The notes below the pieces were generated by a model. The model ran no database searches, was not told the origin of the DNA, and saw only the letters and a program-made list of their open reading frames with translations. A DNA stretch of 64,000 nucleotides from the human T2T-CHM13v2.0 reference genome, Homo sapiens, in the NCBI RefSeq assembly GCF_009914755.1, contig NC_060944.1; one strand, 5' to 3'. The position numbers were made by a program, and so were the translations under genes. Each line of letters starts with the position of its first letter. Positions within the stretch are counted from its first letter, which is position 1. Shown in pieces: positions 14,061 through 17,073 of this stretch.

Positions 14061-14999
14061 TCTCCCTCTCACTGTCACTCTCACTCTGTTTGTGTGTACA
14101 CGCACATGTGTGTGCATGCATCATTTAGCCCTGCTGACTGATATGCCTACTTATTTATGATCAAGAGCCAGACATTGACCTAAGAGAAAAAGTCTTTAGA
14201 TGGGATCTCCCTCCAAAGAAATTGTAGTTTTCTTCTCGCTTAGAGGTAGATCCTCTTGGTCCAATCAGGCTGAAATGCCTTGAGGCTAGATTTCAGTTTT
14301 TGTGGCAGCTGGTGCATTTCTAGTTTGCCTTTTCAGCTAGGGATTAGCTTTTTAGGGGTCTCAATGCCTAGGGAGATTTCTAGGTCCTCTGTTCCTTGTT
14401 GAACTCCAATTTTGTCTATCCTTTTGCTGAGAGGTCTGCTTAACTTCCTTTTAGTCAGGTAGCTCCATTTTATGCTAAGCTTCTTAGTTGCTCACCTTCT
14501 GCAACTAAAGAATCAGAAAATGCTGTGAAGGAAAAACAAAATGAAATTGTTTTGTTTCTACTGGCCCTTTATCAAGCCCTGGCCACCATGATAGTTATGA
14601 ATTCCAATTTTTGTCTATGCAGGCCTATCAGATTTCTAACATCTCTGAGCTACCATTTTCTTCTTAGCTATCTGCTCAGCAAATGTATCCAAATGAAAGG
14701 TTGTGGAGAATGTTGAAATCAATTCAATGTGTTTCTCTTCTTTCTGAGAGCTTACACACTCAAGTTCTGGATGCTTTGATTGCTATCAGAAGCCCTTAAA
14801 TAGCTACTTATTTTTAATTAATTTTATCCAGCTTTCATAATTGTTCTCGCCAGGTGGGATGGCCTAATACAAATTAATTTGTCATAGCTAGAATTAGAAG
14901 AAGAAAACTTTAAACAGCATTGAGTTATCAGTACTTTCATGTCTTGATACATTTCTTCTTGAAAATGTTCATGCCTGCTGATTTGTCTGTTTTTTTTTT

Positions 15000-15640
15000 C
15001 TGACAAACTCATCTTTTATTTTTGATGGGTGTGTGTGTTTTTTTTTTTAACAGGGATTTGGGGAATTATTTGAGAAAGCAAAACAAAACAATAACAATAG
15101 AAAAACTTCTAATGGTGATGACAGCCTCTTCTTCAGTAATTTCTCACTTCTTGGTACTCCTGTCCTGAAAGATATTTCAAGATAGAAAGAGGACAGCTGT
15201 TGGTGGTTGCTGGATCCACTGGAGCAGGCAAGGTAGTCTCTTTTATTCTTCATTATTAAGAACTTAATTTGGTATCCATGTCTCTTTTTTCTTCTAGTTT
15301 GTAGTGCTGGAAGGTATTTTTGGAGAAATTCTTACATGAGCATTAGGAGAATATTTGGGTGTAGTGTCTTGTATAATAGAAATTCTTCCACTGATAATTT
15401 ACTCTAGTTTTTTGTTTCCTCATATTATTTTCAGTGGCTTTTTCTTCCACATCTTTATATTTTGCACCACATTCAACACTGTATCTTGCACATGGCGAGC
15501 ATTCAATAACTTTATTGAATAAATAAATCATCCATTTTACCCAGTCTTAACCAGAGAAGACATTTTTTCAGAGCTGGTCCAGGAAAATCATGACTTACAT
15601 TTTGCCTTAGTAACCACATAAGCAAATGATCCCGATTTTT
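15000..15640 (+). pseudogene. CFTRP: CFTR exon 10 (legacy exon 9) paralog with flanking intron (CFTRP-type pseudogene fragment)
   Basis: TG/T acceptor tract ...aacag| then exon 15054-15232 encoding [41 protein letters not shown] and, out of frame, [18 protein letters not shown] (NBD1 Walker A), then |gtagt. It is 179 bp against 183 bp in CFTR (gatatTAATttcaag to gatatttcaag), giving TAG at 15183-15185. Which CFTRP copy this is cannot be determined. Confidence 0.97.
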
Positions 15641-15752
15641 TTTTCTTTAAAAGTTTTTACTTATTTATTATTATTATACTTTAAGTTTTAGGGTACATGT
15701 GCACAATGTGCAGGTTAGTTACATATGTATACATGTGCCATGCCAGTGCGCT
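15641..15752 (-). mobile_element. L1PA2/PA3-like 3' end with A-rich tail (non-inverted part)
   Basis: ttatactttaagttttagggtacatgtgcacaatgtgcaggttagttacatatgtatacatgtgccatg is the reverse of a young L1 3' terminus. Confidence 0.92.
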
Positions 15753-15754
15753 TT

Positions 15755-15824
15755 CTGTTGTGGGGTGAGGGGAGGGGGGATGGATAGCATTGGGAGATAT
15801 ACCTAATGCTAGATGACGAGTTGG
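15755..15824 (+). mobile_element. Inverted L1PA2/PA3 3'UTR segment (twin priming)
   Basis: ctgttgtgggg...gatagcattgggagatatacctaatgctagatgacgagtt is the L1 segment immediately upstream of the previous piece, in the opposite orientation. Confidence 0.9.
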
Positions 15825-17073
15825 TGTCTGTTTGTTGAGAGGAGAATGTTCAGAATTTTATATCCTCAACATCTTTTTCTGCATTAATAAGATACTGAGA
15901 TTTTATAACTTGTCATTTTGGTCACTTATATTTTCATATGGAAAAAATCATATAATCCAGGGTTTCCAATATATTTGTGTAAAATTAAGAAAATGATCTT
16001 ATCTAATTACTTGATCAATATCTGTGATTATATTTTCATTGCCTTCCAATTTTAATATTTGTTCTCTATTCCTTCTTAATCTGGATTGAGGTTCTGATTA
16101 ATTATTTTAATGTTGCAAATTGTTTTCACTTTTTCCATAAAATGAGTTCTTGAGTTTATTTCTTTACTGCATCATTCTATTTTCAAGTCATGAACTTCTG
16201 ACTCAATTAAAAAAAAAACCTCACCATTTCTATGAAATTGTTGTGTTCATATTTTATTTTTTATTTACTGTATAGTTCAGTATAGAACATATAATATTAT
16301 AAAATATGTAATAATAGGATAAAAAATAAGATACAAAAAGTAAGGGGTGTGAGTTTGGAAAATTATACTTGCTGATATGGTGAAATAACTCTGACCAAAT
16401 TAACCTTCCAGCAATAAAAACAAAATTGGAAAACTGGATAAAATATACATGGTAACATGTTAGGTCAGCTTTGTCTGTCTTCAAACAAATATAAATATTG
16501 TTCTACCCTTGTTACCTATTTATTCTTTTCCATTTTGTTTTGCTCGATTTTTTTCTTATACCCATTTATTTGAGTAAATTTTGAAAATATCTATTCTTCA
16601 TTTTTGCTGTTTCTAGTGTGGTATATATTTCTCAGATAAAAGGTATTTTCCCTTTTATCTTTCCCTAAACTCACACTACATATATTGCATTTATCTTATA
16701 TCTGCTTTAAAACCTATTTATGTCCTTTTAGGTCACTTACATCAGAGGAGTTGTATTGGTGCGGGAAGGGGAATTTGATTTAATGAAACAATGCATTAAA
16801 AATTTGTACTCACTTTGTGATTCAATGATAGTCAATGTGGCATATAATTTTTTTCTGTCTTTTAATATTATATTGTCTTTGTTGCTTTTCTCTAACATGA
16901 AATATATGTTACACAGGCACAGTGCTGGTGTCTTTTCTATTATTATCTTTGAATGGGACTCATTACTGTCTGAGCTATTTATTAAAATGGTGAAGGAAAA
17001 GATCAGTAAGGTAAATTATGTCAATAGGCAGTATCAATTTAGGTCTATTTTCCATGAATATTTTCTCAGCAAC

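What the first reader, a model, noticed from the sequence alone, without database searches (positions are those of the whole stretch)
14984..15833. CFTR exon copy is a complete antisense L1 3' transduction with TSD, two tails and a 5' inversion
Seen on the minus strand: TSD (tgtctgttt 15825-15833), inverted L1 piece, L1 3' end, the L1's own A-rich tail (~15636-15680), ~640 bp of CFTR intron/exon/intron in antisense, AATAAA (plus-strand tttatt 15015-15020), 15 nt, A10 tail (14990-14999), TSD (tgtctgttt 14984-14992). Removing the insert rejoins one old L1M ORF2. Established: this layout is the signature of L1 read-through to a downstream poly(A) signal, and dispersed pericentromeric copies of this CFTR exon with L1 involvement are already known. 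Inference: the exon left CFTR as RNA in a single event and was later multiplied by segmental duplication.
Basis: partly seen in the sequence, partly recalled or inferred. Interest (0 to 1): 0.8.

Follow-up and report, generated by a model that had tools for sequence, protein, structure and literature searches.

The report
Known L1-carried CFTR exon 9 retrocopy
This is one of six copies of a single CFTR exon that the L1 jumping-gene machinery pasted once, from RNA, into an already duplicated stretch of DNA near a centromere; it is a known pseudogene (CFTRP3) that matters mainly because it can confuse cystic fibrosis testing.

Summary
It consists of a 9-nt target-site duplication (14984-14992 and 15825-15833), a T-run, 641 nt of CFTR legacy exon 9 with intron flanks, an internal A-rich L1 tail, an antisense L1 3' end and an inverted L1 piece. 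The CFTR piece starts exactly 15 nt from an antisense AATAAA.

- **Empty sites:** four paralogs in the same T2T assembly read ...GATT-TGTCTGTTT-GTTGAGAGG with one copy of the 9-mer, as predicted.
- **Single event:** six filled copies exist besides CFTR. In a flank tree they are split from the empty copies with bootstrap 100. One insertion therefore hit an already dispersed duplicon and was then copied.
- **Twin priming:** in 16 of 19 genomic L1s examined the two L1 pieces are collinear and 5 nt apart, which is the twin-priming geometry.
- **CFTR limits:** CFTR homology does not pass either duplication.

Two points are not confirmed. The flanks could not be shown to be L1M ORF2. The CFTR locus of this assembly has no L1 at the junction, so "3' transduction" is a good fit but unproven. 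A 2003 paper whose title I saw (text not held) argues for trans mobilisation.

The case is already known, so interest is low to moderate.

The parts
14984..14992 (.). Left target-site duplication TGTCTGTTT. The last three T cannot be told apart from the tail.
   Evidence: Read. Present as a single copy at 4 of 4 empty-site paralogs.
14993..14999 (-). Terminal poly(A) tail of the insert, seen as T on the plus strand. It makes T10 together with the TSD's TTT.
   Evidence: The other five copies have T14-T16, and one has a (TTTG)n variant. The parent CFTR has ...GAAAATAT here.
15000..15640 (-). CFTR-derived segment, retrotranscribed from an antisense RNA. It holds intron 8 end, legacy exon 9 and about 400 nt of intron 9. 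It matches chr7:118863929-118864582 of the same assembly.
   Evidence: Searches give 94.7-96% identity. Substitutions alone amount to 3.22% over 621 ungapped columns.
15015..15020 (-). AATAAA poly(A) signal used by the antisense RNA, 15 nt before the tail.
   Evidence: The same hexamer is present in the parent CFTR intron.
15054..15232 (+). Copy of CFTR legacy exon 9 (annotated CFTRP3). It is 179 nt instead of 183 because of a 4-nt deletion. AG and GT splice dinucleotides are kept.
   Evidence: and the hub annotation.
15641..15666 (-). Internal A-rich tail of the L1 part. The form kept by three of the other five copies is (TAAA)n-AAAAACTTTTAAAG (AAAT in two of them), followed by A8-9, of which five A belong to CFTR.
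15667..15752 (-). L1 3' end (last ~86 nt of the 3' UTR), in the same sense as the antisense CFTR RNA.
   Evidence: 97-100% identity to the five L1 copies usable.
15753..15754 (.). Two unassigned bases (TT) at the inversion junction.
   Evidence: the aligned limits of the two L1 pieces.
15755..15824 (+). Inverted L1 piece. In intact L1s it lies 5 nt upstream of the 3' piece. Homology can run 2 nt (TG) into the TSD.
   Evidence: collinear and on the same strand in 16 of 19 L1 loci.
15825..15833 (.). Right target-site duplication TGTCTGTTT.

Best explanation
One L1-driven, target-primed reverse transcription event, dated by inference to roughly 13-18 million years ago, inserted a composite template into one copy of an already dispersed pericentromeric duplicon. 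Read 5' to 3', the template was: L1 3' end, its own A-rich tail, 641 nt of CFTR antisense sequence, poly(A). The plus strand was nicked after TGTCTGTTT, and the T-rich end primed on the poly(A) that had been added 15 nt after an AATAAA in antisense CFTR intron 8. Reverse transcription ran through the exon and intron 9 into the L1 tail and about 86 nt of L1. The second strand primed internally on the same L1 RNA (twin priming), which gave the inverted 70-nt piece, a 5-nt loss and the 9-nt duplication. The filled copy was then duplicated to six places. Most likely source of the composite, by inference: read-through transcription from an antisense L1 that once lay in CFTR intron 9 at the T5/A5 run (about chr7:118,864,575-580) and was later lost from the population. 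That would make this a classical 3' transduction. The copy itself is a dead exon fragment.
For: Shown:
- TSD, tail, signal spacing and CFTR limits.
- 4 of 4 empty sites carry a single 9-mer and lack exactly 14993-15824.
- There are six filled copies and no intermediate. 7 of 7 candidates were scored and 11 of 11.
- Filled and empty copies are split with UFBoot 100 on 5383 columns.
- Twin-priming geometry is present in 16 of 19 L1 loci.
- The CFTR/L1-tail junction falls in CFTR's own T5 run, plus strand CCATTTTT/G. That resembles an L1 endonuclease site (consensus recalled), which is where a source L1 would be expected.
- Parent-to-copy substitutions are 3.06-4.03%. Five L1 copies that match the L1 piece well differ from each other by 3.1-5.1%. 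These ages are compatible.

Inferred from established knowledge (recalled):
- 3' transduction is far commoner than trans mobilisation of a rare intronic antisense RNA.
- Source L1s of transductions are usually polymorphic and usually lost.
Against: - No L1 lies at the junction or within about 5 kb either side in the CFTR locus of this assembly. A defining feature of 3' transduction is therefore not met here.
- The one dedicated paper is titled 'Trans mobilization...' (title seen only).
- Only 3-4 A separate the ...CTTTTAAAG motif from CFTR's own A5, which is short for the tail of a young source L1.
- The tail carries several overlapping AATAAA. In a CFTR-resident L1 it would be followed by a U/GU-rich stretch, which should favour cleavage there rather than read-through (inference).
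- No sibling insertions carrying the same CFTR tag exist. All 7 hits are the parent or this one family.
Confidence: 0.5

Rival explanations
1. Trans mobilisation with a template jump. A cryptic antisense transcript of CFTR intron 9 to intron 8, polyadenylated after the AATAAA, was taken as the first template by L1 reverse transcriptase. At its 5' end, or at its A5 run, the enzyme jumped onto the poly(A) end of an L1 mRNA and copied about 86 nt more before twin priming. No L1 was ever in CFTR.
For: - The parent locus has no L1.
- The junction lies in an A run, which suits a microhomology-guided jump onto poly(A).
- The internal tail looks like a complete L1 mRNA end: (TAAA)n with AATAAA, then about 12 nt ending CTTTTAAAG, then A's. 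That would be a cleavage site at the usual distance (interpretation inferred).
- The title of Ejima & Yang 2003 (content recalled only).
Against: - It needs a rare, promoter-less antisense intronic RNA to beat the cis preference of L1. It also needs a jump in the order non-L1 to L1, which is the reverse of the usual U6-L1 type chimeras (recalled).
- The enzyme would have passed longer A runs in the same RNA without jumping. One example is the run complementary to the T9-T11 tract at 15040-15049.
- The jump would have to land within about 4 nt of the start of the L1 poly(A).
- No source L1 with this tail was found. 4 of 4 exact 20-mer hits are paralogs. 0 of 6 non-paralog near-hits is a matching L1.
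Confidence: 0.35
2. Two separate insertions at one spot. First a twin-primed, truncated L1 landed. Then a processed copy of an antisense CFTR RNA landed in that L1's poly(A) tail. Its own duplication, made only of A's, is hidden in the two A runs.
For: - Poly(A) tails are good L1 endonuclease targets (recalled).
- The A8-9 run left of CFTR (in L1 sense) and the terminal A10-16 run could hide an all-A duplication.
Against: - 0 of 10 paralogs is an intermediate with L1 but no CFTR.
- The stem branch of the filled clade is short, 0.0034 substitutions per site, which leaves little time for two hits within about 40 nt.
- It still needs the rare trans-mobilised antisense RNA.
Confidence: 0.08
3. DNA-level capture. 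A CFTR genomic fragment and an L1 fragment were joined into a break by end joining or during duplication, without reverse transcription.
For: Pericentromeric duplicons are mosaics of transposed DNA pieces (recalled). Mosaic boundaries are seen nearby.
Against: - The CFTR piece ends exactly 15 nt after AATAAA and is followed by an untemplated A run.
- A 9-nt duplication flanks the whole insert.
- The L1 pieces show the twin-priming geometry.
- None of these is expected from DNA capture.
Confidence: 0.02

Closest known systems
Amplified CFTR exon 9 copies (Rozmahel et al. 1997, Genomics 45:554; Ejima & Yang 2003, Hum Mol Genet 12:1321; RefSeq CFTRP3)
   Same: This is that case: legacy exon 9 with intron flanks, joined to L1 and dispersed to several chromosomes. 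PMC5121184 (passages read) reports chromosome 9 and 20 pseudogenes that confound exon 10 variant calls.
   Different: Nothing different in kind. The two primary papers were seen only as reference-list entries. Their texts are not held (for the 2003 paper). I therefore cannot say which details they already reported, such as empty sites, twin priming or copy number in a complete assembly.
L1 3' transduction (Moran 1999; Goodier 2000; Pickeral 2000; all recalled)
   Same: L1 3' end, own A-rich tail, unique non-L1 sequence, second poly(A) after a downstream AATAAA, and TSDs around the whole.
   Different: No source L1 is at the parent locus in this assembly.
Twin priming 5' inversion (Ostertag & Kazazian 2001; recalled)
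   Same: An inverted upstream L1 segment next to a direct 3' segment, a small loss (5 nt) at the junction, and 2 nt of microhomology to the target.
   Different: It is very short (70 + 86 nt of L1) and is combined with a carried non-L1 segment.
Chimeric retrogenes made by RT template switching (Buzdin et al. 2002/2003; recalled)
   Same: Two RNAs' worth of sequence inside one pair of TSDs with one terminal poly(A).
   Different: In those chimeras the L1 or Alu part is usually the 3' part. Here L1 is the 5' part and the 3' part is an antisense intron-exon-intron RNA.

Membership tests
L1-mediated (TPRT) retro-insertion | Target-site duplication flanking the whole insert, shown against an empty site | tested here: met
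   A 9-nt TGTCTGTTT lies at both ends. 4 of 4 empty paralogs have one copy and lack exactly 14993-15824.
L1-mediated (TPRT) retro-insertion | Untemplated terminal poly(A) preceded by a poly(A) signal at 10-30 nt | tested here: met
   The window has T10, and the other copies T14-T16 or a (TTTG)n variant, where the parent has GAAAATAT. AATAAA lies 15 nt away.
L1-mediated (TPRT) retro-insertion | Endonuclease-like nick site (TTTT/A type) | tested here: inconclusive
   The plus strand reads GTTT/G at the inferred first nick. This is a weak match to a consensus that I recall and did not test statistically.
L1 3' transduction | L1 3' end and own tail, then unique non-L1 sequence, then a second poly(A), all within one TSD pair | tested here: met
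L1 3' transduction | Carried sequence maps to one parent locus | tested here: met
   chr7:118863929-118864582. 7 of 7 genome hits are this parent plus the six copies.
L1 3' transduction | A source L1 lies directly upstream of the carried sequence at the parent locus, in the same orientation | tested here: not met
   The parent reads CCATTTTT|GTTAACATT. No L1 3' end lies in chr7:118859000-118868900. Only one human genome was examined, so a lost or polymorphic source is not excluded.
Twin-priming 5' inversion | The inverted and direct segments are adjacent in intact L1, with the inverted one upstream | tested here: met
   16 of 19 L1 loci have both pieces collinear, on the same strand and 5 nt apart. 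3 of 19 lacked the upstream piece.
Template-switch chimeric retrogene / trans mobilisation | The two parts derive from RNAs of different loci | not testable with these tools
   It would need the L1 source locus or ape and pangenome CFTR haplotypes. The motif searches found no source L1.
Segmental duplication family | Long high-identity paralogy beyond the insert, with a tree consistent with copying after insertion | tested here: met
   About 10 kb aligns at 93-96% in all ten copies. Filled versus empty split has UFBoot 100.
   Pfam gave 0 of 13 stop-free pieces with an RT or L1 hit. tblastn with the C-terminal ORF2 region of 15 L1s gave a best E of 0.09, and blastn gave none. These tests are weak for a very old element, and only the last third of ORF2 was used.

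The most novel reading that the evidence does not exclude
No L1 ever sat in CFTR. A cryptic antisense intronic CFTR transcript was reverse-transcribed in trans, and the enzyme then jumped from its A5 run or 5' end onto the poly(A) end of an L1 mRNA. That L1 mRNA itself carried a 9-nt micro-transduction (CTTTTAAAG). The locus would then be a natural fossil of L1 reverse-transcriptase template jumping in the order non-L1 to L1, moving an exon with no adjacent element.
Probability: 0.35. Interest if true: 0.45.

Novelty: already known. Interest (0 to 1): 0.25.

Why it matters
- It is a textbook-grade natural example of an exon moved by the L1 machinery and then multiplied by pericentromeric duplication.
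- The copies are 96-97% identical to CFTR at the substitution level and keep the TG/T tract and splice sites. They can mimic or mask variants in CFTR exon 10 (new numbering) in short-read or short-amplicon tests (PMC5121184, passages read).
- The complete assembly gives a clean set of six filled and four empty sites.
- Whether a source L1 sat in CFTR (cis) or the RNA was mobilised in trans remains open. It could be settled with ape and pangenome assemblies.

Tried and rejected
1. **Search for a surviving source L1 with the same tail.**
   - A 20-mer across CTTTAAAAG gave 4 exact hits, all paralogs. With 1 mismatch it gave 59 hits against 115 for the reversed control.
   - A 24-mer on the L1 side gave 10 hits with up to 1 mismatch against 2 for the control. 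Four of the ten are paralogs.
   - The six others were fetched. By eye, against recalled consensus ends, they are three Alu, one SVA-like end and two older L1s with different 3' ends. None qualifies.
   - 12 other L1 tails lack the motif.
2. **L1M ORF2 in the flanks.** Pfam on 13 stop-free pieces found nothing. tblastn and blastn with L1 C-terminal regions found nothing significant.
3. **Whole 10-kb flank tree.** It was misleading at both ends. The chr9 and chr20:31.27 copies are not homologous left of about window 11488. The empty chr14 copy shares 22 sites with the filled chr14 and chr22 copies, 21 of them right of 17951. I restricted the tree to 11500-17900.
4. **Context mapping with 15-19 kb queries.** It was barely scored: 8 of 36,697 candidates in one and none in the other.
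5. **Literature.**
   - Seven full-text searches ran. They found only reference-list mentions of the two key papers.
   - Three look-ups by id were not held.
   - Earlier findings of this scan were not open.
6. **L1 lineage age.** Only 5 of 16 L1 loci had L1 sequence across the full 1.4 kb, so the age check is rough.
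Full report
**What is there**

- TGTCTGTTT lies at 14984-14992 and again at 15825-15833.
- A T10 run covers 14990-14999.
- From 15000 the sequence is CFTR: the intron 8 end with its TG/T tract, legacy exon 9 at 15054-15232 (the hub's CFTRP3 row), and about 400 nt of intron 9.
- Plus-strand TTTATT at 15015-15020 is AATAAA on the minus strand, with exactly 15 nt between it and the T run.
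- After a T run at 15636-15644 comes an A/T-rich stretch, to about 15666.
- Next is an L1 3' end in antisense (15667-15752), then two unassigned bases, then an L1 piece in the opposite orientation (15755-15824).
- The repeat finder did not list the 9-mer pair among its ten families. The pair is seen by reading and by alignment.

**The parent locus**

The window's own assembly (T2T-CHM13) could be searched.
- The CFTR-derived part alone finds 7 places, all 7 candidates scored. These are the parent at chr7:118863930-118864565 and six copies.
- The parent reads ...GAAAATAT|CTGACAAACTC where the window reads T10|CTGACAAACTC. Homology therefore starts at 15000, or at 14999 because a T is shared.
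- At the other end the window copy has several private changes. The other five copies read ...CAAA(A/T)GGT(C/G)CCCA-T8-9-CTTTAAAAG..., against the parent's ...CAAAAAGTCTCCA-TTTTT-GTTAACATT.
- CFTR homology thus runs into CFTR's own T5 run, and the junction lies inside an A/T run at about 15640.
- In 10 kb around each filled copy, the only collinear match to 9.9 kb of the CFTR locus is this 654-nt piece. The other matches are 70-87% identical, scattered, and in both orientations, as interspersed repeats are.

**Empty sites**

- The left flank (14500-14992) finds 11 places, all 11 scored. These are the six filled copies, four more paralogs and one 73% match on chr2.
- The four extra paralogs are chr7:57.95 Mb, chr15:44.89 Mb, chr12:37.43 Mb and chr14:8.41 Mb.
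- They read ...CTGATT-TGTCTGTTT-GTTGAGAGG with a single 9-mer, exactly as predicted.
- Over 10 kb they align on both sides and lack precisely window 14993-15824.
- The second refutation test also fails to refute.

**One event, then copying**

- On all 7812 ungapped columns of the ten 10-kb loci, the filled/empty split has 11 supporting sites. A conflicting grouping of the empty chr14 copy with the filled chr14 and chr22 copies has 22.
- Those 22 sites lie at one end: 21 of them are right of window 17951. 152 of the 186 sites private to the chr9 and chr20:31.27 pair lie left of about 11400, where that pair stops being homologous.
- Restricted to 11500-17900 (5383 columns), the maximum-likelihood tree separates the six filled from the four empty copies with ultrafast bootstrap 100.
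- Pairwise differences there are:

| Comparison | Difference |
|---|---|
| filled vs filled | 0.35-3.3% |
| filled vs empty | 3.1-4.4% |
| empty vs empty | 3.5-4.7% |

- The duplicon was therefore already dispersed, one copy was hit, and that copy gave rise to the six. No paralog has the L1 piece without CFTR or the reverse (0 of 10).
- This window's copy groups with the chr14 and chr22 pair. It shares with them a 4-nt deletion in the exon.

**Twin priming**

- In 16 of 19 genomic L1 loci examined, the two L1 pieces are collinear, on the same strand and 5 nt apart, with the window's inverted piece upstream. Three loci lacked the upstream piece.
- Homology of the inverted piece can run 2 nt (TG) into the right TSD in 8 of the 16. 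This is the kind of microhomology expected where the second strand primes.
- This is the geometry described for twin priming (mechanism recalled from Ostertag & Kazazian 2001).

**Dating (inference)**

- Parent-to-copy substitutions are 3.06-4.03% on 621 ungapped columns. Nine sites are shared by all six copies against the parent.
- With 1.0-1.3e-9 substitutions per site per year per lineage (recalled), this gives about 13-18 million years, with a sampling error of about a fifth.
- The nine shared sites are no more than the parent lineage alone should have accumulated. Copying therefore began soon after insertion.
- Five L1 copies that match the L1 piece at 97-100% (3' piece) differ from each other by 3.1-5.1% over 1.4 kb. 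That age is compatible. The other 11 of 16 loci were truncated or diverged by 12% or more and were left out.

**How the composite arose**

The layout is that of a 3' transduction, but the CFTR locus of this assembly has no L1 at the junction or within about 5 kb. Two readings remain.

*(a) Read-through from an L1 that was later lost.*
- An antisense L1 once sat at the T5 run, plus strand CCATTTTT/G, which is an endonuclease-like site. It read through to the AATAAA 640 nt downstream and was later lost from the population.
- By base rates (recalled), transduction is much commoner than trans mobilisation of a rare intronic antisense RNA, and source elements are usually lost.

*(b) A jump between two RNAs.*
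- A free antisense CFTR RNA was copied first, and the enzyme jumped onto an L1 mRNA's poly(A).
- The internal tail reads (TAAA)n-AAAAACTTTTAAAG-A's. It looks like a complete L1 mRNA end with a 9-nt micro-transduction.
- That tail fits (b). It also fits (a), if the CFTR-resident L1 inherited the tag.

Neither the A-run junction nor the short A stretch discriminates between them. I put (a) at 0.5, (b) at 0.35, two sequential insertions at 0.08 and DNA-level capture at 0.02.

**Search for a source L1**

- The exact 20-mer across the motif occurs only in 4 paralogs. One-mismatch hits (59) are fewer than for the reversed control (115).
- A 24-mer on the L1 side gave 10 hits with up to one mismatch against 2 for the control, four of them paralogs.
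- The six non-paralog hits are three Alu, one SVA-like end and two older L1s with different 3' ends (element names by eye from recalled consensus ends).
- No source was found.

**The L1M ORF2 remark**

- 0 of 13 stop-free flank pieces hit an RT or L1 family in Pfam.
- tblastn with the last ~1.4 kb of 15 L1 copies (X at stops) gave a best E of 0.09, and blastn gave nothing.
- These are weak tests for a very old element. The remark is unconfirmed rather than refuted.

**Literature**

- Rozmahel et al. 1997 and Ejima & Yang 2003 were seen only as reference-list entries. The text of the 2003 paper is not held. Two other look-ups also failed.
- What I say of their content is recalled.
- PMC5121184 (passages read) states that chromosome 9 and 20 pseudogenes confound calls in CFTR intron 9 and exon 10.
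- Seven full-text searches found no held text that describes the mechanism.

**Verdict**

The single RNA-mediated event and later duplication are supported. The name "3' transduction" is a good fit but unproven. The case is already known.

Noticed in passing
window 17951-20005, with loci L058, L051 and L053: The empty chr14:8.41 Mb copy shares 22 derived sites with the filled chr14:8.68 and chr22:11.48 copies. 21 of them lie right of window 17951. This suggests gene conversion or a mosaic breakpoint between neighbouring acrocentric copies.
   Followed up: partly
loci L051 (chr14:8.68 Mb) and L053 (chr22:11.48 Mb): These two filled copies differ by only 0.33-0.35% over 5-8 kb. That is far less than any other pair and is consistent with recent exchange between acrocentric short arms.
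   Followed up: no
window about 11487-11489; loci L052 and L054, positions about 800-990: Homology of the chr9 and chr20:31.27 copies to the window stops at about 11488. An L1 3' end resembling the insert's L1 pieces lies at that boundary in both copies.
   Followed up: no
locus L050 (chr20:25.92 Mb), the equivalent of window 14990-14999: The terminal tail of this copy has become a (TTTG)n microsatellite, where the other copies have a pure T run.
   Followed up: no
window 15198-15200 (codon equivalent to CFTR Ala455) and the other five copies: The parent has GCG. This window's copy has GTG, chr20:25.92 has GCA, chr14 keeps GCG, and chr9, chr22 and chr20:31.27 have GCT. None of the six copies of this assembly carries GAG, the A455E look-alike that PMC5121184 attributes to a chromosome 20 pseudogene.
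   Followed up: partly
L060 (chr1:51411040-51411300) and L061 (chr2:3590920-3591180): An Alu end and an SVA-like end share an identical 37-nt stretch, AAAAATAAATAAATAAATAAAAACATTTAAAGAAAAA, right after the element body. It is one base different from the internal tail of the CFTR chimera. It may be compositional convergence of A-rich tails and target sites, but this is unexplained.
   Followed up: partly
window 14695-14865: Apart from the ten paralogs, the left flank has a single 73% match at chr2:24900456-24900624. This hints that part of the flank is an old interspersed repeat of unidentified family.
   Followed up: no
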